Below, in pieces: positions 3,145 to 51,323 of a stretch of 51,406 bases of DNA (the stretch's first letter is position 1; each line of letters opens with the position of its first letter). The DNA is taken from IMG/VR virus record IMGVR_UViG_3300012204_000001; one strand, 5' to 3'. Source of the DNA: a virus. The translations under genes were made by a program, and so were the position numbers. The notes beneath the pieces are model-generated. The model was not told the origin of the DNA, did no database searches, and worked only from the letters and a program-made list of their open reading frames with translations.

Positions 3145-6100
3145 AAAAGGCACCGACAGGATCGCCACCGTTTATCATGATGTCAGCACCCTCATAAATA
3201 TCACGGATCAGATATGACCCAGGAACAGTCAGCATCGGAGCCTTCAAGAGCTGAGCTTTCGCTTCAGCCTGCTGCTTATCGGAGCCCGACAGATATTGTT
3301 GTCCCGTTCCTATTAGACCTGCTGCAGGACCTCCGCGAAAACCAAGCGCGCCGGGAACAAGATACCACGACGATAGATTTAGACCCAGCGCGGCTGAAGC
3401 AAGTGCTAGACTTGATTGGGTCATTGCAAATCTCGTCATCACGCCAGCTCTTTCTCGCGCAGTTCCTCTACTCGCAAGACGCATTAGCTGCGAGCGTGCC
3501 CATACAGGCCAGGACCCAAATTGTCCTAATATGCGTCCTGTATTTGTTCCCCAGCCCAGGGGATGATTTGCTAGGCCAAATACAGAAACTGTCTCGTATG
3601 ATGTGGCCTTTCCTAGGAAATCAGCCGCTTCCCTGAAACGCCCCTCCCTAACTAGCTGATCGAAGAACTGCTGAACTGGTGGATCGTAGGAGTTCATGAA
3701 CAGTTTATCGTAAGCCTTAACTTTCGCGGCGTCACCTGCTCCATACGATCCTCCCTCCATCTTACCAATCTCCTTCAAGGCACGAGTATACGTCTCTAAG
3801 TACACTGCGGAGTGTGCCCACTGGTAGATCGTGTGCTGTAGCCCCCACTTGATTCCTGCCTCACCCGTTTTCTGAATGAACTCACGAACTGGCTGCGTCC
3901 GTCCTGAAATCGAGTTAGCAAGACGTTCCTGTGGAGTTACGATGTTAATGGCTCCCATCGTTGGTATCTGACCTTCTCTCGTAAGCGCAGCACCTGTACT
4001 TTCTCCAGGCACAACTTCCTTGATGATCTTCGCAGCTTTCAGATCGTCCGGCGTTACTCTCGCCATTTGTGTGAGCATGGCTGCTGTCCGACGCTCACCG
4101 AACCGCGAGTAATACAAGGAAATAAGATTATGAAAATCTCTGATTCCTTGCATCGGACGGAAGCCAATGGTCGCAGATGACGTGAGAGACAAGAACGTGT
4201 TAACTAGATCTCTTCTCGTGTCCACAGAACTCTTGACCCCGAGCCGTTCGAGCATTCCATTGAGTGTCTTCTGCGCCCACTTGGATGTATCGTGTGGCAC
4301 TCCACGAAGCTGATCAATGTAATCATTGACGATGATCTTGCGAATCATCTCACGCTCAGGCAGGCGCGCAGTAGCTTCGTTTACATAATCGTATGCTTTC
4401 TCAAGTGCCTGTTTGGTGTACAGATTGTTATAGCCAGAATTCGTGTAGCGAACTGCTACATTGATCGGATCACGATCGAACTCGTCCATTTCTCCGGTTC
4501 GCAATAGCTCTGATGTGAAAACCGGCGCATTATCCCGACCTACAAAGATCACATCATCCTTGTAGATTCGGAGGTGTGGCATATAACCCTGAAGCTGTTG
4601 CTCCTCAGGAATGTTGAACTTCGGTGCAATTTGCTTATAGTATGACTTCAGCTCGTCGTACACCTTTCTCTGTTGAGGCGTGAACTTCTCGCGCTGCATG
4701 TACGCTTCAGGCTCTAGCGTTCCACCAGCAATCGCGTCCGCGAGTCTGACGATGCCATAGATAGAAAGCTCACCAGGCTTATTAATCGCTAAGACGCGAC
4801 CGAGAACACGAGCAGCTTCAAGATGATTCTCGTCCATGTTCAAGTTGACTTGCAGTCTCTTAACTGCTTCGTCAACTCGTGGACCAGTATCTCCCATCCG
4901 ACGCTCGAGATTCTTGAGACCGCGATAGTAAGCAAACGCTTTCTTCACGTCAATCTGATGATCAGCAAACCAACGTGCGCCAGCAATCTCTTTGTCTGTG
5001 AATCCACGCTTGAATAGTCCAGTTCCAGCCTTCACCATCTCTTCAGCTGATCGCGTTTCGAGAGCAGAAGTAATGGCATCGTACTGGTCAGGCTTCAATC
5101 CTTTTGCGAGCCGCGAAATCCCAGCGATGCGCCGCATATCCTCGTGCATGAAAGCATACTTGCGACGGAACGCTTCCTGTAGAGGATGCCAGACTTGCGA
5201 ATTGAACTGCGTACCTAGCTGAGAGTCAAGCGCGATCATCACCTCTCGCGGTTTAGTAACCAGTCTTCCCGGTAGAGTGGTATTGAACCAGTGACGAAAC
5301 TGCGCAAGTGGACCATCTTTCTGGTAATTGAAGGTCGAGGTGTGAGGACCATTGGGATCAGGCTGGGGAGCAATCAGTCCCTTAGCCACACCAGGAGGCA
5401 CACCGTTGTCACCGATCAAGTCAGTGCCCATCGCTTGATCAGCTGTGTTAACGAAATTCTTGGCTTCCTCCGAAGTTAGGAAGTGTCCGAGTTGCGTTCC
5501 AGTCTGCGCATCTCTGACAAAAATAGAGCCGTTCGCTCTCTCGACATACATACCGTTTGTGGTTGCCAGTTGAGAGAGTTCACCGGCGAGTTCTTTAGGA
5601 TAGCTGCGAGCCTCTGCAACCATGCCCTCGTAAGCAATACGTTCGTTCGGTGATAGTGACTGATTCCTAAGTTCTTCTCCGTAGCGATCACCGAGAAACT
5701 TGAAGAGTCCTGGGAGGTTCTCTGGCTGTTCATGTTTCGTGCTCGCATATTCCTCGACCAACTGTCGAAAAGTTCTGTTGACTGGACCATCAGCACCTTC
5801 AGGAGTTCGCAGACGAATGAACTTCCTGAAGTCCTCATACAGTCCTCTCTTAACATCTTCCTTCGTAATCTCAAAGGGATTCGCCATCACATCGAAGCCG
5901 CGACGAAGATGATCGAGTCCTACCTCGACTTCTGCGCCGTGTGCGTCCTTGATGATATGTCCTTCGAGATTACCCTTGGAGCTTAGAACCGGACGTTCGT
6001 ATGTATACTCGTTTCCGAGGAAATGGACTGGTTGTTCTGGTAGGAAGCCAGATACCTCAAAGAACGCCTTTGACTGTAGATCGGTGGGCGGATTCACCAT

Positions 6101-7417
6101 GATGTCATACAGACCATCAGAGCGTTTATGCGTGATGAAGTCGCCGTGCTCAGCTTCTGCCAACGCCATTGTTCTAATACGATCAGTCGTCAGAGCTGGA
6201 ATGACGGCACCCTCATTCAAATTTCTGGCTGTGCGAATCGCAGCAGTAGCCAAGTCTTTACTCGTCGCCATGTTGTAGAATGATTCGTTTGCTCTTCTTA
6301 TATTCACTCCTTCTGTGTATTGATTCTGTCTAATCAGTGATAAATCCTGAGCCTGAGCTGCTGCATCAGCGATCGGACCAAGGCTAGTCTTATTGGCTCC
6401 CTTGATTGCCTCGAAAGCTAACCCAGCGGGAATCGCCATCAGAGCATATGAGGCAGCTAGATCACGGCGCTCCTTGTTATCAGTACCTGAGAGGAATCCC
6501 ATGACAGCACCACCAGCGGCACCCTCATGAATACCAGTAACTACTTTCCCAAGCACTGTGTTCTCTACTTGCACAGCGCGAGGAAGCGTGGTACGGAGAA
6601 TATTCAGCTCCGCGTCGGTCATCGTCTCTCGTGCTCCAGCACGGAGAAACTCACGACCAACTCGCATCTCCGCCGAGATCCTGCCCATTGCACCGCCAAC
6701 GAGTAGACCTGCGACGTTAGCAACAGTCTCCCTCGTGTACTGCTCTTTCTCCTCCGGAAGTAGGAAACCTCCTGGCGTAGTCTTATCCATAACCAACGAG
6801 ACAGGTTGCGCCACGAGGTTATAGAAGAAGTGTGGAATCCCTAAGACTAAGCTCTTCGCAGTCTCAATCGGATGCGCAGCTGGAGCACCGACACCGAAGC
6901 CTGAATCATCTGACTGATCGAATTCAACTAAGCTCCTATTCGTGAACAAGCGCATGTTAAGGAGCTTGCCTTGGATGCGATCCTTCCAGTCTTCTGAGAT
7001 AGGACTGATCGTAGAGCGCGTCGCCAGCTCTTGAGCGCGTATCTGCTCCGCCGACCCCTGATACTCCCCACGCTTGCGTTCGAGATATTGACGACGTGAT
7101 TCCCCAGGTAGAATGTCACGTTGAGGACCCTCCGGCAATGGTTCCAGCGGTGCTGGTCTAGCTTCAGGAACCGCCTTTGTTTCATCCGCCGTGAACTGAG
7201 CAACACCGCCAAACGATGGAAGTTGTGTTGGTTCACCCATGCTTCCAATCAATTTATTGGCGGTCGTATGTGCTACAGATCCACCGAACAGATCATCGTC
7301 AGAGACGGGAGATTGATTAGTTGGAATCTCGGGTTTAGCCGTTAAAGAAGAGGTACCCGAGGGTCCGAAGAGATCATCATCGGAAACGGGAGATTGTGGA
7401 TCGCGAGGATCTTGCAT
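3113..7417 (-). CDS. giant virion protein (1434 aa), putative internal core/ejection protein
   Basis: Largest ORF and last gene of the late arm. No catalytic motif recognised. Position and size match T7 gp16-type proteins (inference). The N-terminus carries a duplicated QSPVSDDDLFG motif. Confidence 0.8.
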   Translation of the reverse strand: MQDPRDPQSPVSDDDLFGPSGTSSLTAKPEIPTNQSPVSDDDLFGGSVAHTTANKLIGSMGEPTQLPSFGGVAQFTADETKAVPEARPAPLEPLPEGPQRDILPGESRRQYLERKRGEYQGSAEQIRAQELATRSTISPISEDWKDRIQGKLLNMRLFTNRSLVEFDQSDDSGFGVGAPAAHPIETAKSLVLGIPHFFYNLVAQPVSLVMDKTTPGGFLLPEEKEQYTRETVANVAGLLVGGAMGRISAEMRVGREFLRAGARETMTDAELNILRTTLPRAVQVENTVLGKVVTGIHEGAAGGAVMGFLSGTDNKERRDLAASYALMAIPAGLAFEAIKGANKTSLGPIADAAAQAQDLSLIRQNQYTEGVNIRRANESFYNMATSKDLATAAIRTARNLNEGAVIPALTTDRIRTMALAEAEHGDFITHKRSDGLYDIMVNPPTDLQSKAFFEVSGFLPEQPVHFLGNEYTYERPVLSSKGNLEGHIIKDAHGAEVEVGLDHLRRGFDVMANPFEITKEDVKRGLYEDFRKFIRLRTPEGADGPVNRTFRQLVEEYASTKHEQPENLPGLFKFLGDRYGEELRNQSLSPNERIAYEGMVAEARSYPKELAGELSQLATTNGMYVERANGSIFVRDAQTGTQLGHFLTSEEAKNFVNTADQAMGTDLIGDNGVPPGVAKGLIAPQPDPNGPHTSTFNYQKDGPLAQFRHWFNTTLPGRLVTKPREVMIALDSQLGTQFNSQVWHPLQEAFRRKYAFMHEDMRRIAGISRLAKGLKPDQYDAITSALETRSAEEMVKAGTGLFKRGFTDKEIAGARWFADHQIDVKKAFAYYRGLKNLERRMGDTGPRVDEAVKRLQVNLNMDENHLEAARVLGRVLAINKPGELSIYGIVRLADAIAGGTLEPEAYMQREKFTPQQRKVYDELKSYYKQIAPKFNIPEEQQLQGYMPHLRIYKDDVIFVGRDNAPVFTSELLRTGEMDEFDRDPINVAVRYTNSGYNNLYTKQALEKAYDYVNEATARLPEREMIRKIIVNDYIDQLRGVPHDTSKWAQKTLNGMLERLGVKSSVDTRRDLVNTFLSLTSSATIGFRPMQGIRDFHNLISLYYSRFGERRTAAMLTQMARVTPDDLKAAKIIKEVVPGESTGAALTREGQIPTMGAINIVTPQERLANSISGRTQPVREFIQKTGEAGIKWGLQHTIYQWAHSAVYLETYTRALKEIGKMEGGSYGAGDAAKVKAYDKLFMNSYDPPVQQFFDQLVREGRFREAADFLGKATSYETVSVFGLANHPLGWGTNTGRILGQFGSWPVWARSQLMRLASRGTARERAGVMTRFAMTQSSLALASAALGLNLSSWYLVPGALGFRGGPAAGLIGTGQQYLSGSDKQQAEAKAQLLKAPMLTVPGSYLIRDIYEGADIMINGGDPVGAFFRSFGIRQTE

Positions 7418-26808: not shown

Positions 26809-27343
26809 AAGCTACTGTACCGGCCCCAAAGCCGATCCCTAACATCTTTAGTTTGTAAAGAAAAGACGGCTTTTTGGGCTCTGGGAACGGTGCAAACGTC
26901 ATTTTTGGTGTTGGCGTCGAGTCTGCGTCAATTCCGATCAGAATTCCTGGAATGTAGACCCGAGAAATGTCCAAATTACCGCTCCGTAACGAAAAAGTAG
27001 CAACAGAAGCAGTGTCACCCAGCTTAGTCCCGCCGTGATACGACAAAACAGGACGAATCTGCGATCGTTGGGCAGTGTCACAGGGGATTCTAACGTACTC
27101 AGTATCCACATGGGTGACACTGTGGACAAGGTTGAGCGTATCCGTCGTCGCTTTCCGTCTTTTCCAGATACGCACAGAGTCCTTGAACCATTCTGGAACT
27201 GTTTTGACTGTATCATACTGCGTTATTATGATCGGAACTGCTGGTTTTGTTATCGTTCGAGGCAAAAACTCACGAGTTGCAAAGCCAGTCGTCAGTGCTG
27301 TGACAGCGATCAACGCGAGAGTTGCCTTAAAATCCATTTTCAC
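26783..27343 (-). CDS. membrane-anchored protein (186 aa) between terminase and portal
   Basis: N-terminal hydrophobic segment ATLALIAVTALTTGFA and C-terminal segment MLGIGFGAGTVACAAY. ATGA overlap with the terL stop. Confidence 0.6.
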   Translation of the reverse strand: MKMDFKATLALIAVTALTTGFATREFLPRTITKPAVPIIITQYDTVKTVPEWFKDSVRIWKRRKATTDTLNLVHSVTHVDTEYVRIPCDTAQRSQIRPVLSYHGGTKLGDTASVATFSLRSGNLDISRVYIPGILIGIDADSTPTPKMTFAPFPEPKKPSFLYKLKMLGIGFGAGTVACAAYNTAR

Positions 27344-29013
27344 ATCGAATACCCTGTCTCGATGTCACGGTTAGCCATCAACTCCGTCTCTGTCCTCGCG
27401 TACTGATCGAATTTTGCTCGGCTGAGACCAGGCATCCACACGTCTGGTCCGTATGCGAGGGCGTCAAGCATGTGAATCTTCTTACTGGCCCCAAAGGAGT
27501 CATACTCTTTAATAAGCTCTTTCGAGTCATCTTCTTGTCCATCGACAGGGAAGAAGATGGAACCTGAACTAAAGTAATTCGCCAGGCCTCTGACTCGCAT
27601 CGGTTTAGATAGAGCACGCCCTCCCACCACAGGCGAAATTGGGACAATGTTAAAGTATGTCCCTCTGAAGAGCATTTCTCTCTCGAACCAGTGTTTAAAA
27701 ACACCACTAAACAAGACTTCCTCAATGGCCACCAAGCGAGGCTGCCATCTAGCAACCCGCTTAAATACAAAGTCGCACAACTGAGGAGGCTTCCAATCGC
27801 GTTCGAACGCCTGTAAGATGAAACAACGATTAAGCGAGTCGGTCCCTGTAACAACAAAGCCACCAAGACCAGACATAGCAGGGTCGATAAGGATGCAAAT
27901 ATCCAGATCACGGACGTTCAGCCTGGTCTGAACCTTCCCAGAAAAGACGACAATCGTGTTGAAGCCCACCCAATGATACCACCTCTTCCAGCCCTTGTCG
28001 AACTCCGTCGCCCCCTCTTCAGGATTATTCGCATACTGAGCGGTCCAAACCTTACGGTTTTTACGAAGTATGGCAAGTGCATCCTGCGTGAAACCACCCT
28101 CGGGGAATATTGGAGTGAGTTCAGGTACATTGCCTTCCAAGAGCTTGCCAGTTGGCTCCTCAACTCCCCGGATATATTTGAGTAGCTGATCACCGTAACG
28201 CTCGTGTATGTGTGAGTACAGGTCGTCGTATGCCCAACGAGTACCGATCAAGTCGAAGTGATCGCGACCAAAGTCAGAGAAGAAAGACTGGATGTTGTCA
28301 AACCACTCTTTGGCTGCGGCCATAACTGCTTCGGAGTCTCTTGCTTTATCTCCGATGAGGTCATCGAACTTGATATAGTTGTAGTGGCGACCCTGAGACC
28401 GACCACCGACACCCATAGTGTCAATAGTAGGCTCAGGCCACGTCTGTGAACGCGGTAGTTCGAGTTCGTGCCGATTGATGCGCTGCTTTCGTGGCGAAGG
28501 GACAATCTCTGGAAAGAGCCCCATGAGAAGCGGGTTCCCAAGAAAATGCCCTGTGATTGCAAAGAGAAAATTCGAGGCTTGTCCATCGGTCTCGTGACAG
28601 ATTAAGAGACGACAGTCTGGACCAGCGTTTCGAGGCCACGGCTCCGATTCAGTTACGTCCGGTAGAACAATCTGAATCGAATCACCAATCGTATCAACCG
28701 TCGATTTCAGGTGGCCACGAGGAAGGAGGATCTCGCGGAAGCGCCACTCTTTGTTTCTTTCCATCCAGCTGCATAGATGTCCATGCAGATTCTCGGCTAG
28801 TCTATCATAACCGAGGATTGATTGGTTGAGGAAGAAAAGGTCTATCTTTGCGCGTCTACGGAGATAGTTCCATGTATCTGTGTCAATTTCACGGAATTTC
28901 TCCTCAACTTTCTTCTTCGTATCAGAAATGGTTGTTTCGTCTAGTAGCTTTCTCCATTCCTCATCCGAGACTTCGCCTTCTTGCTCGTAATTACGGATTA
29001 GAAGGCTTGGCAT
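27340..29013 (-). CDS. terL: terminase large subunit
   Basis: 557 aa. Walker A-like LLPRGHLKSTV, Walker B-like LLICHETDG. The C-terminal nuclease pattern is ILIDPAMSG ... AIEEV ... MLDALAY. Confidence 0.9.
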   Translation of the reverse strand: MPSLLIRNYEQEGEVSDEEWRKLLDETTISDTKKKVEEKFREIDTDTWNYLRRRAKIDLFFLNQSILGYDRLAENLHGHLCSWMERNKEWRFREILLPRGHLKSTVDTIGDSIQIVLPDVTESEPWPRNAGPDCRLLICHETDGQASNFLFAITGHFLGNPLLMGLFPEIVPSPRKQRINRHELELPRSQTWPEPTIDTMGVGGRSQGRHYNYIKFDDLIGDKARDSEAVMAAAKEWFDNIQSFFSDFGRDHFDLIGTRWAYDDLYSHIHERYGDQLLKYIRGVEEPTGKLLEGNVPELTPIFPEGGFTQDALAILRKNRKVWTAQYANNPEEGATEFDKGWKRWYHWVGFNTIVVFSGKVQTRLNVRDLDICILIDPAMSGLGGFVVTGTDSLNRCFILQAFERDWKPPQLCDFVFKRVARWQPRLVAIEEVLFSGVFKHWFEREMLFRGTYFNIVPISPVVGGRALSKPMRVRGLANYFSSGSIFFPVDGQEDDSKELIKEYDSFGASKKIHMLDALAYGPDVWMPGLSRAKFDQYARTETELMANRDIETGYSM

Positions 29014-31426: not shown

Positions 31427-31626
31427 CCGAAGAGAAGCCGAAGGCCACCGAAGATACACCGTGCCCCGAACAGACACCGAATGCGGCGCTTGATAATGAT
31501 TATCATTCGCATCTGAGGTGACCCTGGGTCGCACCAGTTGAGAATGGTTTTCAGTCGCATCCCCAGCGAGGTGTGACGGAATGTTACACCAGTGTGTGGC
31601 TCGCATCCCCCGAAGCGGACCCGAAG
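31427..31626. repeat. array of seven CCGAA(G) pentamers, mostly 10-12 bp apart
   Basis: CCGAA at 31427, 31438, 31448, 31466, 31477, 31609 and 31621. TCGCATCCCC occurs at 31555 and 31601. Confidence 0.6.
31491..31505. promoter_or_regulatory. 15-bp perfect palindrome TGATAAT-G-ATTATCA
   Basis: AT-rich dyad embedded in GC-rich non-coding sequence. Confidence 0.45.
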
Positions 31627-31841: not shown

Positions 31842-32126
31842 ATGGCGCACGCAATCGGGTGCATTGGCTCCAGTACGGACCAGCGCACGGCGAGGCGAGA
31901 GCCAATGACCAAGGAGCAGCGTGCAAAGAATCGCAAGCTTGTTCCACGGCGGAACCAAGATCGCAAGATCGCCTTTGTGGAGATCAAGCGGGATGGTGAA
32001 AGGCCGAAGGTCAAGGCGATCCGAGCAGGTCACGCGCATCACTACCAGCAGGCGTTCTGGTGGGCTGATGTGAGTCTCGTCAAAGATGCTGATGGGAAAG
32101 TGGTGACGATTAAACGTCACAAATAA
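31842..32126 (+). CDS. small basic protein (94 aa, or 73 aa from ATG 31905)
   Basis: GGAGGGG RBS 7 nt before ATG 31842. Lys/Arg-rich (KEQRAKNRKLVPRRNQDRK). Followed 9 nt later by tRNA-like element A. Confidence 0.55.
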   Translation: MAHAIGCIGSSTDQRTARREPMTKEQRAKNRKLVPRRNQDRKIAFVEIKRDGERPKVKAIRAGHAHHYQQAFWWADVSLVKDADGKVVTIKRHK

Positions 32127-32135
32127 TGTGACGAA

Positions 32136-32211
32136 GTGTGCGGTCCTGTGGGACTGAGCCGAGTCTCGTTTAGCACGGGAACGGTCACAGGTTCAAATCC
32201 TGTCGCACACA
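32136..32211 (+). ncRNA. tRNA-shaped element A (non-canonical)
   Basis: Perfect 7-bp terminal stem GTGTGCG/CGCACAC, directly abutting the T-arm ACAGG-TTCAAAT-CCTGT. The interior does not give a standard D-arm plus anticodon arm. Hairpin GGGACT-GAGCCG-AGTCTC lies at 32150-32167. Confidence 0.5.
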
Positions 32212-32234
32212 TTGAAGTCTGGCTCGTTGGGAGG

Positions 32235-32435
32235 ATATCCCATCCATCCCATCCACGCACATGGATGGAATAGGGCTCCCTCCCAAGGGGTGGGTACCCC
32301 CCCCCATTGTTCTCAGTCTATCTATAAAAATAATATATATAGATAGAGAGACTGAGAATAGATAGGGGGGAGGGGGGACGGTCAGGAGGGGAAGGGGTCA
32401 GTCCATCCACATGGATGGATGCGATGGATGGGATA
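32235..32435. repeat. composite dyad-symmetric element of about 200 bp (origin, terminator or resolution-site candidate)
   Basis: Outer arms ATATCCCATCCATCCCATCC (32235-32254) and GGATGCGATGGATGGGATAT (32416-32435) match 19/20. Inner arms are TTCTCAGTCTATCTATA (32310-32326) and TATAGATAGAGAGACTGAGAA (32338-32358), around an AT-only centre. C8 and G6AG6 tracts flank the core. Confidence 0.8.
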
Positions 32436-32646
32436 TTCACGCGGGGAGATAGATGCTGAATCTGAGAATCCGAGTGTGGCGATGGGAGTTCGCGGTGACT
32501 CTCAAGCCCATCCGCTCGTTACATGAGTGGAGATCGGCAGACCGTGCAATTCGTGATGCGTGGGGCCATTAGCCTCAGATTGTAAGTAGGGTCCGCCGGT
32601 CAGGTGTGGTGTGAAAGCCACACTTGGCATTGCCGAAAGTTGGGGC

Positions 32647-32675
32647 TTGACAACGTGTCGTGACCGTGTTATATT
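32647..32675 (+). promoter_or_regulatory. sigma70-type promoter with extended -10
   Basis: GGGGCTTGACAA: TTGACA (32647-32652), 17-nt spacer ending in TGT, TATATT (32670-32675). Confidence 0.7.
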
Positions 32676-34524: not shown

Positions 34525-34553
34525 TTGACAAACGGCCCGCGATGTGTTATATT
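34525..34553 (+). promoter_or_regulatory. sigma70-type promoter with extended -10
   Basis: GAGGCTTGACAAAC: TTGACA (34525-34530), 17-nt spacer ending in TGT, TATATT (34548-34553). Confidence 0.75.
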
Positions 34554-35299: not shown

Positions 35300-35390
35300 A
35301 TGGCGGGGTGGTTGACTGTTGGTATGTCACGACGGACTGTAAATCCGTTGCCTTCGGGCTTCGAGGGTTCGATTCCCTCCCCTTAGCCAT
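35300..35390 (+). tRNA. tRNA-Tyr(GUA)-like element B with non-canonical terminal helix
   Basis: D-arm TGAC-TGTTGGTAT-GTCA, anticodon arm ACGGA-CTGTAAA-TCCGT (GTA at 35339-35341), long variable arm GCC-TTCG-GGC, T-arm GAGGG-TTCGATT-CCCTC. The ends pair as ATGGC+GGG with CCC[TTA]GCCAT, which is a bulged helix rather than a 7-bp acceptor stem. Confidence 0.5.
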
Positions 35391-35435
35391 AAAGGTCGGC
35401 AGGCAGGGCTTTCGCAGAGTGTGACGACCTATCAC

Positions 35436-35530
35436 AGCACAGAGCCTTCCTCCGAGGGCATGGCAGCTAGGGACTGAGCGTGGCCATCGCGAGTCTCCCT
35501 GGATTGTGGGTTCGATTCCCACCTGTGCTT
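35436..35530 (+). ncRNA. tRNA-shaped element C (94 nt, non-canonical)
   Basis: Perfect 7-bp terminal stem AGCACAG/CTGTGCT and T-arm GTGGG-TTCGATT-CCCAC. The 63-nt interior contains GGGACTGAGC (35470-35479) and CGAGTCTC (35490-35497), as in element A. Confidence 0.5.
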
Positions 35531-35750: not shown

Positions 35751-35928
35751 GTTTCGCAAAGTGAAGCGAGTCGGCAATAACTGCGTGGCCGATATGTTCT
35801 TTGATGGCTACAAGGTTGCAGAGATTCACTGTATGCCAAGTGAGTTCACTATACTCACCACGTTGCTACATGATGGCAACATGGCAAACGGTGGATCGAG
35901 TGAACAGATAGTTGTCAGCGAGGCTTGA
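35740..35928 (+). CDS. hypothetical protein (62 aa from GTG 35740)
   Basis: GGAG 8-9 nt upstream of GTG 35740. The track ORF starts at GTG 35698. The stop TGA lies inside the next promoter's TTGACA. Confidence 0.4.
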   Translation: MNIEFRKVKRVGNNCVADMFFDGYKVAEIHCMPSEFTILTTLLHDGNMANGGSSEQIVVSEA

Positions 35929-35953
35929 CAAACGCGGTACAATGTGTTATACT
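35925..35953 (+). promoter_or_regulatory. sigma70-type promoter with extended -10
   Basis: GAGGCTTGACAAAC: TTGACA (35925-35930), 17-nt spacer ending in TGT, TATACT (35948-35953). Confidence 0.75.
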
Positions 35954-35986: not shown

Positions 35987-38227
35987 GTGACCGAAAGTAG
36001 CAGGGAACCGTCCGATGCTCAACTCGACAGCGAGCTAGAAGCTGCTGATCTTGAGCATGAGCTTGAGGCGATTCGTACTCGGGAAGCCGAGTTGAATCGT
36101 CAGAAGCTCGAAATCATGGACAGACAACGAGTAGCATTGCGTCGCGCTCATGAGGAGAAGCTGCGCCGCGAACGCGAGGCTGAGCAGGAGCGGATACGGA
36201 AGGAGCAGGAACAAGAAATCGAGATCCGTGTATGTGACTTCAACGGATTCTTCGTGAACGTGAAGGTCCTTCCAGATATTCGCTCGGACATCCTCAATCT
36301 CCTCAGGAACATCTACGGTCGGCAGTTCGATGCGTTCTCTGCAGTTAACCGCATCCCTGCTGAATCGTGGGTGAAGTTCAAGGAAGATGTGACGACCTTG
36401 CCTCACGTGAAGGTCACGCATCTTCTTGGCATCGAGGGCAAGATCAAGAAGTACCTCACGATGCCAGACTTCAGCATTTCGATTGACAGCAAACAGCTAA
36501 AGGTCGAGACGCACTCGCAGGCGCCCACCAGATATATCGCTGACATTCCTGGATCTGAGTTCTTCCGCGACAAAGGCTATTGGACAGCGCCGCTCACTGA
36601 GGGCTGGCGTCTATTCCAGAAGCTAGAGCTTTACGCAGCGGAGATTCCGGAGGATAGACAACGAGGCGTGATCTGGGCGCCTGACGCACTGAGACTAGTA
36701 GAAGCAGAAGTTGAGCGTCGCACGAAGCTTGACACGGTGGCGCTCCAACAGGACTCAACATTCGATGTCAAGTTCGAGAATGGATTTGTACTACGGCCAT
36801 TTCAGAGAGTTGGAATCGAGTTCATCGACCTCTCCAAAGGTCGTGCGCTTGTGGCTGATCAGATGGGACTCGGCAAGACTTGGGAATCTATTGGTTGGAT
36901 TATCCTCAGAAATCTCCGATCAGTCATTGTCTGCCCTGCCCATCTCAAGGCTAATTGGGCGCGTGAGATCCACCAACTCACCGGCCAGTTTCCCGCGATA
37001 CTCTCTGGTCGCGAACCTTCCAAGTACGATGTAGAGCTGCTCCTAATCACCAAACCACAGTTCACGATCATCAACTACGATATTCTCGCAGCTAAGACAA
37101 AGGTGGACGAGCAAAGGGTCGTCGATGAGAAAGGCGATATTCACGTCACGCCACCCAAGGAGAGATTCCTCTGGGCTGAGCTGATCATGATGTCGAAGCC
37201 TGACGTGATCGTAGTTGACGAGGCGCACTACACCAAGAACACGGACAGCAATCGGTCCAAAGCTACTCGAATGCTGCAAGTCGAGCACCGCATCGCCATG
37301 ACTGGAACACCAGTCTTGAATCGTCCCGGAGAATATTGGGCGATTCTCAACTGGCTACGTCCAGAGCTGTTCCCTTCCGAAGACAAATTCATCTGGCAAT
37401 ACACGAACAACGGACGCACGGCTCGGAATGTAGAAGAGTTGCGAGATCTCCTCAAGCCTATCATGATTCGTCGGCTGAAGAAGGATGTCGTCTCGGAATT
37501 GCCTCCGATCAATCGCATCACAGAGCTGCATGAACTCTCCGAAGATGCAGTCGTTGTCTACAAGAAAGTTCTCGCGGGTGTGTACAAGGCGATTGACGAC
37601 GCTGGTAATCAAATTGAGCGGAACGTCGCCAACATCCTAGTTGAGATCGGAAAGCTGAAAGAGGTCTGTGCTCATGACAAGGTTGACCGAGTTGCGGACC
37701 TGGCAACGGAACTGTTTGACACGGAGCAGGATGCGGCGGACGCGAAGCTTGGGAACAAGAAGGTCCTCATCTTCTCGCAATACAAAGACGTTGTTCGTAA
37801 GGTGGCTGCAAGACTTGGACGAGAAGCTATCTACTGGACAGGTGACACAGATTTCGCAGAGCGCACTCGTCTTGAAAACGAATTCCAGACTAATCCGGAT
37901 GTGCATTTCCTGGTGGTAAGCCTGATGACAGGCCAGACAGGACTAAACCTCACCGCTGCCGGACACGTCATCTTCGCAGACCTCTACTGGACACCGGCTG
38001 CACACGCACAGGCAGAGGAGCGCGCATACGGACGACTCTCGAACATGCACGGTTGCGACAGTTACTATGTCGTAGCCGAGCGTACAATCGAAGAGTGGAT
38101 TCAGGAGATGCTCGCTGCCAAGCTCGAAACGATCAACGCAGTCGTGGAAGGAATCGACAGCGAGCGTGATCCGAGCATCGGAATGGCAATCATCCAGAAG
38201 TTGAAACAGCTGAGGGGGCAGCTATGA
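35987..38227 (+). CDS. SNF2 family helicase with N-terminal Glu/Arg-rich coiled coil
   Basis: 746 aa. Motif I ADQMGLGKT, motif II VVDEAHYTKN, motif III MTGTPVLN, then LIFSQYKDV, TGQTGLNLT and QAEERAYGR. Confidence 0.9.
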   Translation: MTESSREPSDAQLDSELEAADLEHELEAIRTREAELNRQKLEIMDRQRVALRRAHEEKLRREREAEQERIRKEQEQEIEIRVCDFNGFFVNVKVLPDIRSDILNLLRNIYGRQFDAFSAVNRIPAESWVKFKEDVTTLPHVKVTHLLGIEGKIKKYLTMPDFSISIDSKQLKVETHSQAPTRYIADIPGSEFFRDKGYWTAPLTEGWRLFQKLELYAAEIPEDRQRGVIWAPDALRLVEAEVERRTKLDTVALQQDSTFDVKFENGFVLRPFQRVGIEFIDLSKGRALVADQMGLGKTWESIGWIILRNLRSVIVCPAHLKANWAREIHQLTGQFPAILSGREPSKYDVELLLITKPQFTIINYDILAAKTKVDEQRVVDEKGDIHVTPPKERFLWAELIMMSKPDVIVVDEAHYTKNTDSNRSKATRMLQVEHRIAMTGTPVLNRPGEYWAILNWLRPELFPSEDKFIWQYTNNGRTARNVEELRDLLKPIMIRRLKKDVVSELPPINRITELHELSEDAVVVYKKVLAGVYKAIDDAGNQIERNVANILVEIGKLKEVCAHDKVDRVADLATELFDTEQDAADAKLGNKKVLIFSQYKDVVRKVAARLGREAIYWTGDTDFAERTRLENEFQTNPDVHFLVVSLMTGQTGLNLTAAGHVIFADLYWTPAAHAQAEERAYGRLSNMHGCDSYYVVAERTIEEWIQEMLAAKLETINAVVEGIDSERDPSIGMAIIQKLKQLRGQL

Positions 38228-49344: not shown

Positions 49345-49530
49345 ATGGCTAAGCTGAGCATAGAGCTTAACGGCTTCGCATTTGATGTCAGGAATCCTGA
49401 TGAAGCCGTTGTAATAATTTCCGAACCAACGATGGGACGCGAGTTAGGTAGCAGTATCTCGGTTCCACTGAAGGTGCTTCGTCAAGCAATGGATCAAATC
49501 AATAAAGGTTGGAAAGGTTCTCGCAAGTGA
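49345..49530 (+). CDS. hypothetical protein (61 aa)
   Basis: The ATG lies 1 nt after the previous stop. GTGA overlap with the polymerase start. Confidence 0.5.
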   Translation: MAKLSIELNGFAFDVRNPDEAVVIISEPTMGRELGSSISVPLKVLRQAMDQINKGWKGSRK

Positions 49531-51323
49531 CTACCGGCATCGGCACCAAGCGCGTACCAAACGAGGGTCCACTGGATGCTCGAATCTATTGCGTTGGTGA
49601 GGGACCGGGTGCAGATGAGGTTATTGAAGGACGGCCGTTTATTGGTGCGTCTGGCAGTAAGCTTAGAGCTGTCCTTGGAAACAACGGAGTTAGTGAAGAT
49701 TCCGTTCGATTCTGCAATCTGGTCCAACATCGTCCGCCGAACAACGTCTTCGCAGCGGTCCTCCGTAGTAGTGAGCTGGCAGCCGGAGTCGAGGAGCTTG
49801 CTAGTGACATTAGAAAGTTTCGTCCTAATGTCGTCGCCGCGCTTGGAGCTTGGCCCCTTTATTTCCTCACTGGTAAGCGGGGAAAGAAAGCTGCTGGAAC
49901 AGGAATTGGAAAGTGGAGAGGATCTATTCTCCCATGTACTCTCCCAGGATGCGAAGGAGTAAAGGTAATTGCCTCCTATCACCCTGCTTTTATCATCAGG
50001 CAGCCAACAGCGTATCCTATATTCGACACCGACATTAAGCGTATTGTTTCTGATTCAAGCTTTGCCGAACTCCGGCTTCCTGTTCGCAACGTCATTATCG
50101 ATCCTAGAGGTGAAGAACTCGAGTCTTGGGTTCAACGGCTTTGCGAAGCTGAGTATCTTGCCTGTGATATTGAGACTATTAAGAAGTCGGCCCGCATCCT
50201 CTGTCACGGCTTCAGCCCTGATCCTCTTACGTCTGTTGTCTTTCCGCACTCACCAGGAGACTTTTCTCGCTTCAGTGCCGTTGACGCGATATATCGCAGC
50301 AGAGCACAGAAAATCTTCCATAATGGAGGGACTTTCGACATACCCATCCTAGAAGCAAACGACTTCGTTATAGAGAACTTCTTCTGGGATACGATGGCTT
50401 GTCAACATGTGATGTGGGCGGAGTTGCCTAAGAGTCTGGAATATCTCTGCTCCGTCTACACTAGACAACCTTACTATAAGACGGCCGGTCGAGCTGAGAT
50501 TCCAGAGGACGCGAAGGGATGGAGTGAGAAGTTCGAGAAGAAAGAACTCTACATCTACAACGGCACCGATACTGGTGTGACGTACGAAGTGTTCGAGAAT
50601 CAAGTGAGGGAGATGGCAGAAGGTCCAAAGGACTGGATGAAAGTGTTCAGGTTCGAAATGTCACAATATGCTCCAGCCGCACGAATCAGCAACGCAGGAA
50701 TGCTCATAGACCTGGAGCGTCGCGCGATGCTGAAGCGAGCACTGGAGATAAAGTGGGCAATCAATCAGTTCGTACTGGATAGATTGACTGGTTACAAGAC
50801 CAATGTCAACTCTCCAAAAGTAATAGCCAAGATACTCTATGACAAGGACAAGTTCGGACTTCCACCACGCACGAGCCACAAGACTGGAGAGGTAACGACA
50901 GATGAAGATGCTATCGTATCCCTCATCGCCTTTACCAAAGACAGACTTTCTAAGCTCAAGCCAGGTGGAAACGCCGTCGAGTTCTGGAGAGTCAGGTACG
51001 AAGCTCTCAAGACAATCCTTGTCATCCGCGGAGTTAGAAAGTTGTTGTCTTCTTACATCAATGTTCCAATCAGTTCAGATGGGAGACTCCGCGCTACATA
51101 TAAGCCTGTTGGTCCTGAGACGGGACGGTGGGCTTGCGCCATGTACTTTGATGGTACAGGAGCTAATGCGCAGACGTTTCCTCGGGAGGTGTTTGAACTT
51201 AAGAATTACGAGGATAATGAACTCATGAAGTCTGTTCTACCATACATTCTCGAATGCGAAAAGGAGGATCTCGAATTGGAGGTAGATGAAGAGAAGGAGA
51301 CAGAAGAAGCGGTAGCAGTATAA
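49527..51323 (+). CDS. UDG (family 4-like) - 3'-5' exonuclease - family A DNA polymerase N-terminal part
   Basis: UDG motifs GEGPGADEV, GRPFIGASGSKL, SYHPAFI. Exonuclease motifs ACDIETIK, HNGGTFDIPIL, YNGTDTGVTY. Polymerase thumb region LLSSYI...DGRLRATY...ETGRWAC and NAQTFP (cf NLQNIP). The ORF ends in an acidic tail before motif A. Confidence 0.85.
   Translation: MTTGIGTKRVPNEGPLDARIYCVGEGPGADEVIEGRPFIGASGSKLRAVLGNNGVSEDSVRFCNLVQHRPPNNVFAAVLRSSELAAGVEELASDIRKFRPNVVAALGAWPLYFLTGKRGKKAAGTGIGKWRGSILPCTLPGCEGVKVIASYHPAFIIRQPTAYPIFDTDIKRIVSDSSFAELRLPVRNVIIDPRGEELESWVQRLCEAEYLACDIETIKKSARILCHGFSPDPLTSVVFPHSPGDFSRFSAVDAIYRSRAQKIFHNGGTFDIPILEANDFVIENFFWDTMACQHVMWAELPKSLEYLCSVYTRQPYYKTAGRAEIPEDAKGWSEKFEKKELYIYNGTDTGVTYEVFENQVREMAEGPKDWMKVFRFEMSQYAPAARISNAGMLIDLERRAMLKRALEIKWAINQFVLDRLTGYKTNVNSPKVIAKILYDKDKFGLPPRTSHKTGEVTTDEDAIVSLIAFTKDRLSKLKPGGNAVEFWRVRYEALKTILVIRGVRKLLSSYINVPISSDGRLRATYKPVGPETGRWACAMYFDGTGANAQTFPREVFELKNYEDNELMKSVLPYILECEKEDLELEVDEEKETEEAVAV

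What the first reader, a model, noticed from the sequence alone, without database searches (positions are those of the whole stretch)
32136..32211. tRNA-shaped element A has a perfect acceptor stem and T-arm but no standard D or anticodon arm
This 76-nt element starts 9 nt after the stop of ORF 31842..32126. It has a flawless 7-bp terminal helix (GTGTGCG/CGCACAC) stacked directly on a consensus T-arm (ACAGG-TTCAAAT-CCTGT), as in a tRNA. The 44 interior nucleotides do not fold into a normal cloverleaf. The competing folds are three. One is a 6-bp hairpin GGGACT-GAGCCG-AGTCTC (32150-32167). One is a mini-hairpin GTCC-TGTG-GGAC with no GG D-loop. One is TCTCG-TTTAGCA-CGGGA, which would give anticodon UAG but has C at position 37 and no partner D-stem. 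No CCA is encoded. The 18 nt GGGACTGAGC+CGAGTCTC recur in element C 3.3 kb away, which suggests a shared function beyond decoding. Possibilities include a tRNA mimic, a Y-RNA/YrlA-like module, a processing signal or a decoy for tRNA-targeting defences.
Basis: seen in the sequence. Interest (0 to 1): 0.7.

Follow-up and report, generated by a model that had tools for sequence, protein, structure and literature searches.

The report
Non-decoding tRNA-shaped RNA in a phage
This 76-nt element is probably not a working tRNA but one member of a previously undescribed family of tRNA-derived, anticodon-less RNA modules in an uncultured soil phage lineage, and it most likely acts as a handle that host tRNA-processing enzymes use to cut the phage's early transcript.

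Summary
They include a perfect 7-bp acceptor stem stacked on a consensus T-arm, no encoded CCA, and 18 nt shared with a second tRNA-shaped element (C, 35436-35530).

ARAGORN calls element A tRNA-Leu(UAG), but that call does not hold up:
- Rfam's tRNA model scores 22.1 bits, below the 29-bit threshold.
- ARAGORN's cloverleaf needs a defective D-stem and is 12 kcal/mol less stable than the minimum-energy fold.
- Five homologous A-type or A-slot elements in four related phages keep the acceptor stem, the T-arm and a GUCC-NNNN-GGAC hairpin. All cells pair, 10 of 16 pairs show double compensatory changes, and 0 of 500 shuffles reach this.
- In those relatives the "anticodon arm" is replaced by unrelated arms, some of them only a 3-4 bp stem with a GNRA tetraloop.

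Where the element follows the conserved ORF94 gene it starts 5-15 nt after the stop codon. Two relatives have a plain hairpin in that slot.

The best explanation is a tRNA-derived module resembling plant-mitochondrial t-elements or mascRNA. Host RNase P, RNase Z and the CCA-adding enzyme would excise it, which would set the ORF94 mRNA 3' end and release a small stable RNA. A trans-acting decoy role is not excluded. YrlA, tmRNA and a genuine tRNA-Leu are not supported. No expression data were available.

The parts
32136..32211 (+). Element A: a 76-nt tRNA-shaped, probably non-decoding RNA module (A-type family member), including discriminator A at 32211
   Evidence: ARAGORN reports tRNA-Leu(tag). 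Rfam tRNA gives 22.1 bits against a gathering score of 29. The A-type covariance model R1 recovers homologs in L115, L118 (two copies) and L248 at E <= 3e-5.
32136..32142 (+). Acceptor-stem 5' strand GUGUGCG, which pairs with 32204-32210 (CGCACAC)
   Evidence: Seven of seven Watson-Crick pairs. Across six homologs, six of the seven pairs show changes on both sides and all cells remain paired.
32143..32154 (+). Hairpin 1, GUCC-UGUG-GGAC, starting directly after the acceptor stem with no nucleotides 8-9. It takes the place of a D-arm.
   Evidence: It is conserved and covaries: GUCC/GGAC in the window, L115 and L248, GUCCC/GGGAC in L118a, and GUCUC/GAGAC in L118b. It is part of the minimum-energy fold.
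32155..32158 (+). Conserved single-stranded linker UGAG (GAG in L248). It may stand in for the D-loop guanines that dock on the T-loop.
   Evidence: Present in all five A-type members. The docking role is an inference.
32159..32186 (+). Variable arm, specific to this lineage. It contains the pseudo-anticodon stem-loop UCUCG-UUUAGCA-CGGGA (32164-32180).
   Evidence: In relatives it is replaced by a 14-nt stretch (L115), GCC-GAAA-GGC (L118a), CAUC-GCAA-GAUG (L248) or a 40-nt arm (L118b). The window copy has 14 more nucleotides than L115.
32187..32203 (+). T-arm ACAGG-UUCAAAU-CCUGU
   Evidence: The GGTTCAAATCC consensus lies at 32190-32200. Three of the five stem pairs covary.
32150..32167 (+). 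The 18 nt shared with element C: GGGACUGAGC + CGAGUCUC
   Evidence: Two matches in the window against none expected by chance. Each half is a motif native to the A-type or C-type family.
31842..32126 (+). ORF94, a small basic protein gene whose stop codon lies 9 nt upstream of element A
   Evidence: Homologs at about 60% identity in L007, L008, L115, L117, L118 and L119. The tRNA-shaped element follows at 5-15 nt in five genomes.
35436..35530 (+). Element C: a sister tRNA-shaped RNA (C-type family) with an enlarged anticodon-type arm and the conserved loop core CGGCCAUC
   Evidence: Rfam tRNA gives 25.8 bits against 29, with about 15 extra nucleotides in the anticodon loop. It is conserved in nine genomes, with covarying acceptor and T stems and an invariant CGGCC.
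35304..35389 (+). tRNA-Tyr(GUA), the only element in the window that passes as a tRNA
   Evidence: Called by ARAGORN. Rfam tRNA gives 29.8 bits.

Best explanation
Element A is a tRNA-derived RNA module that no longer decodes. It belongs to a family restricted to one lineage of uncultured soil phages of about 51 kb. The family keeps the 'top half' of a tRNA: the 7-bp acceptor stem stacked on the T-arm, discriminator A73, U74 and no encoded CCA. It also keeps a compact hairpin followed by (U)GAG in place of the D-arm. The anticodon arm is free to vary or shrink.

Proposed mechanism, all of it inferred rather than shown:
1. The element is co-transcribed with the early gene ORF94.
2. Host RNase P cuts at G1 (32136), which defines the 3' end of the ORF94 mRNA.
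3. RNase Z or 3' exonucleases trim after A73, and the CCA-adding enzyme caps the RNA.
4. This releases a stable small RNA of about 76-79 nt.

Plant-mitochondrial t-elements and mascRNA work in this way.

The apparent UAG anticodon arm exists only in the window lineage. It goes with 14 extra nucleotides that carry a motif otherwise typical of the sister C-type element. That extra stretch explains both ARAGORN's tRNA-Leu call and the 18-mer shared with element C.
For: Shown:
- The acceptor stem, T-arm and hairpin 1 are conserved through compensatory change. All 95 cells pair, 10 of 16 pairs change on both sides, 0 of 500 shuffles reach this, and slid registers pair only 38-48%.
- The variable arm is not conserved. 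It is 28 nt in the window, 14 nt in L115, GCC-GAAA-GGC in L118, CAUC-GCAA-GAUG in L248 and 40 nt in L118b. ARAGORN at default settings calls none of these a tRNA.
- Real tRNAs in the same phages score 41-77 bits on Rfam tRNA. Element A scores 22.1 and element C 25.8.
- The family fold is the minimum-energy fold at -32.0 kcal/mol. ARAGORN's cloverleaf is -20.0.
- Strand bias is 21 to 0 in favour of the gene-sense strand, so these are RNA-level elements inside early transcripts.
- The element starts 9, 5, 8, 5 and 15 nt after the ORF94 stop codon in the window, L115, L248, L247 and L007. In L117 and L119 the same slot holds a plain stable hairpin, which fits a role as an mRNA 3'-end structure.
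- A73 followed by U74 is present in all eight A-slot elements, and none encodes CCA.

From the literature:
- Non-canonical tRNA-like t-elements that keep the GGTTCRANYCC motif sit just downstream of ORFs. RNase P and RNase Z cleave them to form mRNA ends and to release stable, C/CA-tailed t-element RNA (PMC1920247).
- mascRNA is produced in the same way (PMC4919922).

From my own knowledge, not checked here: the acceptor/T-arm minihelix is enough for RNase P and for the CCA-adding enzyme, and a uracil just after the discriminator activates B. subtilis RNase Z on precursors that lack CCA.
Against: - There are no expression, cleavage or CCA-addition data. Every enzymatic step is inferred.
- No convincing sigma70-type promoter was found upstream of ORF94, so even co-transcription is an inference.
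- A pure processing signal does not obviously require the conserved hairpin 1 and (U)GAG. It also does not explain why A and C are identical over 18 nt within one genome.
- No ORF follows A in the same transcription unit. What follows is a conserved palindromic block and then a new promoter at 32647. The benefit of cutting at this position is therefore unclear.
- The slot is dispensable, because L117 and L119 lack a T-arm there.
- The strict A-type family has only five members from four genomes.
Confidence: 0.55

Rival explanations
1. Trans-acting tRNA mimic. After excision and CCA addition, A (and C) would act as a decoy or sponge for a host factor that recognises the acceptor/T-arm half of tRNAs. 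An example would be a defence toxin that modifies tRNA 3' ends. Alternatively, they would bind a shared partner through the GGGACUGAG...CGAGUCUC module.
For: - The parts kept under selection are the ones that acceptor-end-binding proteins see.
- Several such elements occur per genome, all in the early region.
- Hairpin 1 and (U)GAG are conserved beyond what cleavage alone seems to need.
- A and C are identical over 18 nt only within the window genome, which could reflect co-evolution with one partner.
Against: - No partner protein was identified. The 20 window proteins scanned include no RNA-handling enzyme.
- The A slot is empty in L117 and L119.
- The two halves of the 18-mer are largely native family motifs.
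- The ORF94 structure model was too poor to suggest RNA binding.
Confidence: 0.2
2. Genuine, if aberrant, tRNA-Leu(UAG) that is charged and decodes CUA/CUG codons for the phage.
For: - ARAGORN calls it at default stringency.
- A 5-bp stem with a 7-nt loop and U33 can be drawn.
- The discriminator is A73, which from my own knowledge is the Leu identity element in E. coli.
- The same phages do carry real tRNAs.
Against: - Rfam tRNA gives 22.1 bits against 29, with the D-arm left unaligned.
- The D-stem has a mismatch, and G replaces U8.
- Position 37 is C.
- There is no long variable arm, which bacterial tRNA-Leu normally has (my own knowledge).
- The cloverleaf is 12 kcal/mol above the minimum-energy fold, and the minimum-energy fold closes the loop to 5 nt.
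- The covarying hairpin 1 is incompatible with the D-stem.
- No homolog keeps the anticodon arm. The closest, L115, has 14 fewer nucleotides there.
Confidence: 0.07
3. Decaying tRNA pseudogene with no present function.
For: - Phage tRNA clusters turn over quickly.
- The interiors are highly variable, and the slot is present in some genomes and absent in others.
- A range of forms exists in the clade, from real tRNAs through tRNAs with enlarged anticodon loops to bare minihelices.
Against: - Neutral decay would not keep 16 base pairs fully paired through 26 double substitutions across genomes that are only about 60-74% identical in neighbouring proteins.
- It would not produce a 21 to 0 strand bias.
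- It would not hold the element 5-15 nt from the ORF94 stop codon.
Confidence: 0.1
4. DNA-level element, such as an integration site that copies part of a host tRNA gene or a component of the adjacent palindromic origin- or operator-like block.
For: - Element A lies about 20 nt upstream of a strongly conserved palindromic non-coding block at 32230-32440.
- Phage attachment sites often overlap the 3' halves of tRNA genes (my own knowledge).
Against: - No integrase was seen among the proteins scanned, and no prophage relative exists in 185,579 reference genomes.
- An attachment site would copy only the 3' part of a tRNA gene and would not maintain a covarying 5' acceptor strand.
- The palindromic block is conserved in L117 and L119, which lack the tRNA-shaped element.
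Confidence: 0.03

Closest known systems
Plant-mitochondrial t-elements (Forner et al. 2007, PMC1920247)
   Same: - Both are non-canonical cloverleaves that keep a perfect acceptor stem and the GGTTCRANYCC T-arm.
- Both lie a few nucleotides downstream of an ORF.
- Neither has a decoding role.
- In mitochondria, RNase P and RNase Z cleavage creates the mRNA end and a stable small RNA tailed with C or CA. That is the mechanism proposed here.
   Different: - This element is in a bacteriophage, so bacterial RNA-based RNase P would be the enzyme.
- The family has its own conserved hairpin-(U)GAG module in place of a D-arm.
- Cleavage has not been shown here.
- There is no sequence homology to t-elements.
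mascRNA / menRNA (Rfam RF01684)
   Same: These are small tRNA-like RNAs of about 60 nt with a reduced anticodon arm. RNase P and RNase Z excise them from the 3' end of a longer transcript, and CCA is then added (PMC4919922).
   Different: They are eukaryotic nuclear lncRNA products. The Rfam model does not match A and gives only 15.5 bits (gathering score 42.5) on C, so these phage elements are not members.
Canonical tRNA (Rfam RF00005), specifically tRNA-Leu(UAG)
   Same: The acceptor stem, T-arm and discriminator A73 are shared, and the element evidently descends from a tRNA. ARAGORN calls it tRNA-Leu.
   Different: - It scores below the Rfam gathering score.
- It has no canonical D-arm.
- Position 37 is C.
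- It has no class II variable arm.
- The anticodon arm is absent from all homologs.
Bacterial and phage YrlA / Y RNAs (PMC4201824; Rfam RF02553)
   Same: These are non-coding RNAs with a tRNA-like domain. RNase P and the CCA-adding enzyme accept them as substrates, and they also occur in phages.
   Different: - In YrlA the RNA ends form a Ro60-binding stem, and the tRNA-like domain is internal.
- YrlA genes lie within about 4 kb of a Ro60/TROVE gene.
- Here the ends form the acceptor stem, no TROVE protein was found, and the Rfam YrlA model does not match A.
tRNA-like domain of tmRNA
   Same: An acceptor stem and T-arm without a normal D-stem or anticodon arm.
   Different: There is no G3:U70 pair, no tag reading frame and no pseudoknots. 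ARAGORN's tmRNA search is negative.

Membership tests
Canonical tRNA (RF00005) | 7-bp acceptor stem stacked on a 5-bp T-stem with a 7-nt T-loop (TTCRANY consensus) | tested here: met
   GTGTGCG/CGCACAC and ACAGG-TTCAAAT-CCTGT. Both stems covary in homologs.
Canonical tRNA (RF00005) | D-arm: U8, a 3-4 bp D-stem and a D-loop with G18 G19 | tested here: not met
   Position 8 is G. ARAGORN's D-stem CUGU/GCCG has one mismatch and one G-U, with abnormal spacers. Infernal leaves 18 nt unaligned at this position. The competing GUCC/GGAC hairpin is the one that covaries.
Canonical tRNA (RF00005) | Conserved anticodon arm: 5-bp stem and 7-nt loop with U33 and a purine at 37 | tested here: not met
   The window copy can form UCUCG-UUUAGCA-CGGGA, but position 37 is C and the minimum-energy fold closes the loop to 5 nt. 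The arm is absent or unrelated in all homologs.
Canonical tRNA (RF00005) | Score at or above Rfam's curated gathering threshold | tested here: not met
   22.1 bits against 29. Real tRNAs of related phages score 41-77 bits.
Canonical tRNA (RF00005) | Aminoacylation and decoding on the ribosome | not testable with these tools
   Needs an acid-gel northern, a LeuRS assay and polysome association.
Bacterial tRNA-Leu | Class II architecture with a long variable arm | tested here: not met
   Only 6 nt (AACGGU-C region, 32181-32186) lie between the pseudo-anticodon stem and the T-stem. That bacterial tRNA-Leu is class II is my own knowledge.
t-element / mascRNA-type processing module | Non-canonical tRNA-like fold that keeps the acceptor stem and the GGTTCRANYCC T-arm | tested here: met
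   The motif definition is from PMC1920247.
t-element / mascRNA-type processing module | Position immediately next to an mRNA end or ORF boundary | tested here: met
   Starts 9 nt after the ORF94 stop codon, and 5-15 nt after it in four other genomes.
t-element / mascRNA-type processing module | Cleavage by RNase P and RNase Z, non-templated CCA, and a stable excised RNA | not testable with these tools
   No transcriptome data were available. Needs end-mapping in infected cells or in vitro cleavage.
YrlA / Y RNA (RF02553) | Match to the YrlA covariance model | tested here: not met
   No YrlA hit on 32050-32300 even at E <= 10. The only hit is 14 bits (gathering score 69), at 35336-35441.
YrlA / Y RNA (RF02553) | A Ro60/Rsr (TROVE) gene within about 4 kb on the same strand | tested here: not met
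   None among the 20 window proteins scanned, which include all genes between 31.8 and 38.2 kb of at least 94 aa. Not every small ORF was scanned.
YrlA / Y RNA (RF02553) | 5' and 3' ends pair into a Ro-binding stem carrying the GNCGAAN0-1G motif | tested here: not met
   The ends form a tRNA acceptor stem, and no such motif lies near the 5' end. The feature is defined in PMC4201824.
tmRNA | tRNA-Ala-like domain with G3:U70, a tag reading frame and pseudoknots | tested here: not met
   ARAGORN's tmRNA search is negative. Pair 3:70 is G-C, and the element is only 76 nt.

The most novel reading that the evidence does not exclude
This phage lineage has converted tRNA genes into a set of small, CCA-tailed mimics of the tRNA top half (A-type, C-type and bare minihelices) that act in trans early in infection. 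They might, for example, soak up host immune toxins or sensors that recognise tRNA acceptor ends. The GGGACUGAG...CGAGUCUC module shared by A and C would be the docking site for a common partner.
Probability: 0.15. Interest if true: 0.8.

Novelty: new variant of a known kind. Interest (0 to 1): 0.5.

Why it matters
If these elements are cut by host tRNA-processing enzymes, tRNA punctuation of mRNAs would operate in a bacteriophage early operon. That mechanism is currently known from mitochondria and from a few nuclear lncRNAs. It would also show that phage "tRNA genes" can drift into non-decoding roles while staying under selection.

There is a practical point as well. The element is a clear case where an automatic tRNA call (tRNA-Leu) is misleading, which affects codon-usage and host-range inferences drawn from phage tRNA content.

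The families defined here have clear covariation and are absent from Rfam. They include the A-type elements, the C-type elements with their invariant CGGCC loop, and minihelices of 41-45 nt. They are small, tractable substrates for testing what RNase P, RNase Z and the CCA-adding enzyme need in vivo, and for asking whether phages use tRNA mimics against tRNA-directed defences.

Tried and rejected
- Near-identical DNA search in deposited phages found nothing. The terminase is at most 30% identical to any deposited phage, so there is no annotated relative to lean on.
- An exact search for the 18-mer in IMG/VR gave five chance hits in unrelated sequence with no T-arm.
- Two pattern searches combining a conserved motif with the T-loop returned mostly ordinary tRNAs or coding sequence. 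Only L012 was a true relative. L181 and L191 looked A-like but share no proteins with this clade, so I left them out.
- The metagenome scan with the helicase profile returned the same three relatives. The genome scan returned only generic SNF2 helicases at 31% identity or less, so there is no host clue and no prophage.
- MAFFT could not place the indels inside the hairpins. I therefore seeded a covariance model from two sequences and used Infernal's alignment. That alignment still puts hairpin 1 of L118b in the wrong register, so the hairpin-1 covariation also rests on direct reading of the sequences.
- The ORF94 structure prediction was too poor to use (pLDDT 59, pTM 0.25), so I ran no fold search. 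ORF94 has no Pfam or PHROG match.
- I considered a hammerhead-type ribozyme core in CUGAG...GAG and rejected it by inspection, because the CUGANGA and GAAA core motifs are not present.
- I considered a tRNA intron in element C. The extra 15 nt are far too short for a group I intron, which is the only kind known in bacterial tRNAs (my own knowledge).
- The literature searches found no description of a comparable phage family.
Full report
**Context.** The window is a complete, circularly permuted genome of an uncultured tailed phage.
- It encodes a large terminase (27340-29013, minus strand), an SU10-type portal, an SNF2 helicase (35987-38227), a PD-(D/E)XK nuclease, an AAA_24 protein, a ParB-methylase and a PolA gene split across the window ends.
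- It is the ENA record DNA_vOTU_10185 (51,422 bp), and part of it is also in GCA_009772115.1. Element A is identical in both.
- Nothing similar has been deposited as a phage genome. The terminase is at most 30% identical to any deposited phage.
- Element A lies in the early, plus-strand region, 9 nt after the stop codon of a small basic gene, ORF94 (31842-32126).

**The observation.** All stated features are real.
- The acceptor stem GTGTGCG/CGCACAC has seven Watson-Crick pairs.
- The T-arm ACAGG-TTCAAAT-CCTGT follows directly.
- The discriminator is A, followed by TTG, so no CCA is encoded.
- The 18 nt GGGACTGAGC+CGAGTCTC (32150-32167) recur, split by 10 nt, at 35470-35497 (none expected by chance). 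That second site lies inside another tRNA-shaped element, C (35436-35530), which no tRNA finder calls.
- The window has three T-arm-bearing elements in all: A, tRNA-Tyr(GUA) at 35304-35389, and C.

**What the tRNA detectors say.**
- ARAGORN reports A as tRNA-Leu(tag).
- Its cloverleaf uses a D-stem CUGU/GCCG with one mismatch and one G-U. It has 3-nt and 2-nt spacers where tRNAs have 2 and 1, and C at position 37.
- Rfam's tRNA model gives 22.1 bits against a gathering score of 29 and leaves 18 nt of the D-region unaligned.
- The ARAGORN structure evaluates at -20.0 kcal/mol. The minimum-energy fold is -32.0 kcal/mol (z = -2.9). It consists of the acceptor stem, the GUCC-UGUG-GGAC hairpin, a long irregular arm and the T-arm.

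**Relatives.**
- Helicase homologs led to IMG/VR contigs L006-L008 (67-69% identity). L012 is a probable further relative, found by the C-type DNA pattern rather than through the helicase.
- The larger protein collection gave about 170 helicase homologs. From these I fetched L115-L122 and L246-L249, which span 74% down to 52% helicase identity.
- A detector that asks only for a T-arm and a closing 7-bp acceptor stem found such shapes throughout these early regions.
- With strict criteria there are 21 on the gene-sense strand and none on the opposite strand. Twenty shuffles produced one in total. These are real RNA-level elements.

**The A-type family.** Four other elements share A's architecture:

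| Element | Coordinates | Length | Arm in place of the anticodon arm |
|---|---|---|---|
| Window A | 32136-32211 | 76 nt | 28 nt, with the pseudo-anticodon stem-loop |
| L115 | 385-446 | 62 nt | GCAGAGUAUCGCUC (14 nt) |
| L118a | 5168-5227 | 60 nt | CCGAAAGGCC (10 nt), containing the hairpin GCC-GAAA-GGC |
| L118b | 6536-6625 | 90 nt | 40-nt arm |
| L248 | 3202-3262 | 61 nt | CAUCGCAAGAUGUG (14 nt), containing the hairpin CAUC-GCAA-GAUG |

- All five have the same layout. The acceptor stem is followed directly by a hairpin (GUCC/GGAC, GUCCC/GGGAC or GUCUC/GAGAC), then (U)GAG, a variable arm, the T-arm xxAGG-UUCRAAU-CCUxx, and A73-U74.
- A covariance model seeded from the window and L115 recovers all of them at E <= 3e-5. 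It also recovers L007's element in the same slot at E about 1e-3.
- On the resulting six-sequence alignment, all 95 cells of the 16 modelled pairs form standard pairs. Ten pairs change on both sides, no shuffle out of 500 reaches these values, and slid registers pair only 38-48%.
- This alignment was fitted to the model, and some members were originally found by requiring a closed acceptor stem. The covariation figure is therefore somewhat favourable. Position after ORF94 and the strand control give independent support.
- ARAGORN calls none of the relatives a tRNA at default stringency. No A-type or C-type element reaches Rfam's tRNA threshold, whereas genuine tRNAs of these phages score 41-77 bits.
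- The conserved function therefore cannot be decoding.

**Why the window copy looks like tRNA-Leu, and why it shares 18 nt with C.**
- Aligned to its closest homolog, L115, the window copy has 14 extra nucleotides in the variable arm.
- GGGACUGAG is the A-type family's own motif. It comprises the 3' strand of hairpin 1 and the linker, and is also present in L115 and L118a.
- CGAGUCUC(GUU) is typical of C-type elements. The window's A matches L118's C over 11 nt and L115's C over 7 nt.
- Only in the window genome do both halves coincide between A and C. Within L115 and L118, A and C share no more than 5 nt.
- My inference is that sequence passed between the two paralogous elements in the window lineage, or that both track one shared partner.
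- The extra stretch supplies the 5' half of the stem that ARAGORN reads as an anticodon stem.

**Position.**
- ORF94 is conserved at about 60% identity in six relatives.
- Where a tRNA-shaped element follows it, the gap is 9, 5, 8, 5 and 15 nt in the window, L115, L248, L247 and L007.
- In L118 a minihelix of about 45 nt starts 1 nt after the stop codon, and the A-type copy lies 186 nt downstream of the stop.
- In L117 and L119 the slot holds only a stable plain hairpin.
- A strongly conserved palindromic block follows in every genome, and then a sigma70-type promoter, TTGACA-17-TATATT, at 32647 in the window.
- A is therefore the 3'-terminal structure of the ORF94 transcription unit, not a spacer between two co-transcribed genes.

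**Mechanism (inferred).**
- The conserved parts are the ones that tRNA end-processing enzymes recognise. My own knowledge is that the acceptor/T-arm minihelix is sufficient for RNase P and for the CCA-adding enzyme, and that a uracil after the discriminator activates RNase Z on precursors that lack CCA. All eight A-slot elements have A73-U74 and no CCA.
- The closest described analogues are plant-mitochondrial t-elements. They are non-canonical cloverleaves that keep GGTTCRANYCC and sit just 3' of ORFs. RNase P cleavage there makes the mRNA 3' end, and the excised RNA is stable and carries C or CA tails (PMC1920247). mascRNA is made in the same way (PMC4919922).
- I therefore propose that A is excised by host RNase P and RNase Z and capped with CCA. 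This would set the ORF94 mRNA 3' end and produce a small tRNA-like RNA.
- The conserved hairpin 1 and (U)GAG may preserve an L-shaped elbow for these enzymes, or they may serve a further function in trans. I cannot tell these apart.

**The C-type family.**
- Element C is conserved in nine genomes. Five of seven acceptor pairs and three T-stem pairs show compensatory changes, and the alignment has an invariant CGGCC core.
- That core lies in the apical loop of a long arm whose stem differs between genomes: GGGACU..AGUCUC, GCAAGG..CCUUGC and CUCAUG..CAUGAG.
- Rfam reads C as a tRNA with about 15 extra nucleotides in the anticodon loop, at 25.8 bits.
- The clade also contains tRNA genes with enlarged anticodon loops and bare acceptor/T-arm minihelices. 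Together these form a graded series from tRNA to minimal mimic.

**Rivals.**
- A real tRNA-Leu is unlikely (0.07), for the reasons given above.
- A neutral pseudogene (0.10) is contradicted by the compensatory changes, the strand bias and the fixed position.
- A trans-acting decoy or mimic (0.20) is compatible with everything seen, but I found nothing that specifically supports it and identified no partner.
- YrlA and tmRNA membership fail their defining tests (PMC4201824).
- A DNA-level role (0.03) does not explain a covarying 5' acceptor strand.

**Limits.**
- There are no expression data, and the host is unknown.
- No clear promoter was found for ORF94.
- The strict A-type set has only five members.
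- The number of contigs I could retrieve was capped.

**Verdict.** The ARAGORN tRNA-Leu label is best treated as a false positive on a tRNA-derived, non-decoding module. This is a new variant of a known kind, tRNA-like processing or mimic elements, in a phage setting where I found no prior description.

Noticed in passing
window 32230-32440: A large non-coding block conserved in all relatives. It has CCATCC repeats and two CCATCCACATGGATGG palindromes flanking GGGTGGGTACCCCCC-type runs and a perfect AT-rich palindrome (...TCTATAAAAATAATATATATAGA...). A TTGACA-17-TATAWT promoter always follows 130-250 nt later. It could be a replication origin or an operator region.
   Followed up: partly
window 31492-31507: An exact Fur-box-like palindrome, GATAATGATTATCATT, in the non-coding region of about 600 nt upstream of ORF94 (0.02 expected by chance). 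Weaker copies lie upstream of the ORF94 homologs in L008 (3885) and L118 (4393).
   Followed up: partly
window 32647-32675, 34525-34553, 35925-35953: Three near-identical sigma70-type promoters (TTGACA, 17 nt, TATATT or TATACT, with an extended -10 TG) divide the early region into short transcription units. The same consensus recurs in all relatives. No comparable promoter was found upstream of ORF94.
   Followed up: partly
window 35304-35389: The tRNA-Tyr(GUA) has two mismatches and two G-U pairs in the acceptor stem as ARAGORN draws it. It scores higher on Rfam's tRNA-Sec model (34.8 bits, 9-bp acceptor register) than on the tRNA model (29.8 bits). ARAGORN calls a tRNA-Tyr in seven related loci (L006, L008, L116, L118, L121, L246, L247), so an unusual acceptor/T-stem geometry is possible.
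   Followed up: no
L115 13244-13328; L120 3281-3366: These tRNA genes have canonical D-arms and T-arms and pass Rfam tRNA (47.9 and 49.2 bits). ARAGORN misses them because the anticodon loop or arm is enlarged, for example a 14-nt loop ACGGCGCCACGACG on the stem ACAGG/CUGUU.
   Followed up: no
L121 6888-6929; L118 4983-5026: Bare minihelices of about 41-45 nt. Each is a 6-7 bp acceptor-type stem and a T-arm joined by a bulge of 10-12 nt. One of them starts 1 nt after the stop codon of the ORF94 homolog.
   Followed up: no
L007 5388-5455; L008 4623-4706: The element in the A slot of these two genomes has a different interior (GCCGCUAWUAUAGGGUAGA...). It also carries sigma70-like hexamers: TTGACA just upstream, and TATTAT or TAATAT inside, 17-18 nt apart. 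A promoter may therefore overlap the tRNA-shaped element. The acceptor stems still show two compensatory changes between the two genomes.
   Followed up: partly
window 49509-51323 and 397-1284: The family A DNA polymerase is split across the window ends, and its N-terminal part is fused to a uracil-DNA-glycosylase-superfamily domain and a 3'-5' exonuclease domain. This indicates a circularly permuted complete genome, and the UDG-PolA fusion is unusual.
   Followed up: no
L115 385-446; L118 6536-6625; L248 4680-4742: A short motif, (GCAGAGU)AUCGCU, recurs in the variable arms or loops of three otherwise different tRNA-shaped elements from three genomes. Its significance is unknown.
   Followed up: no
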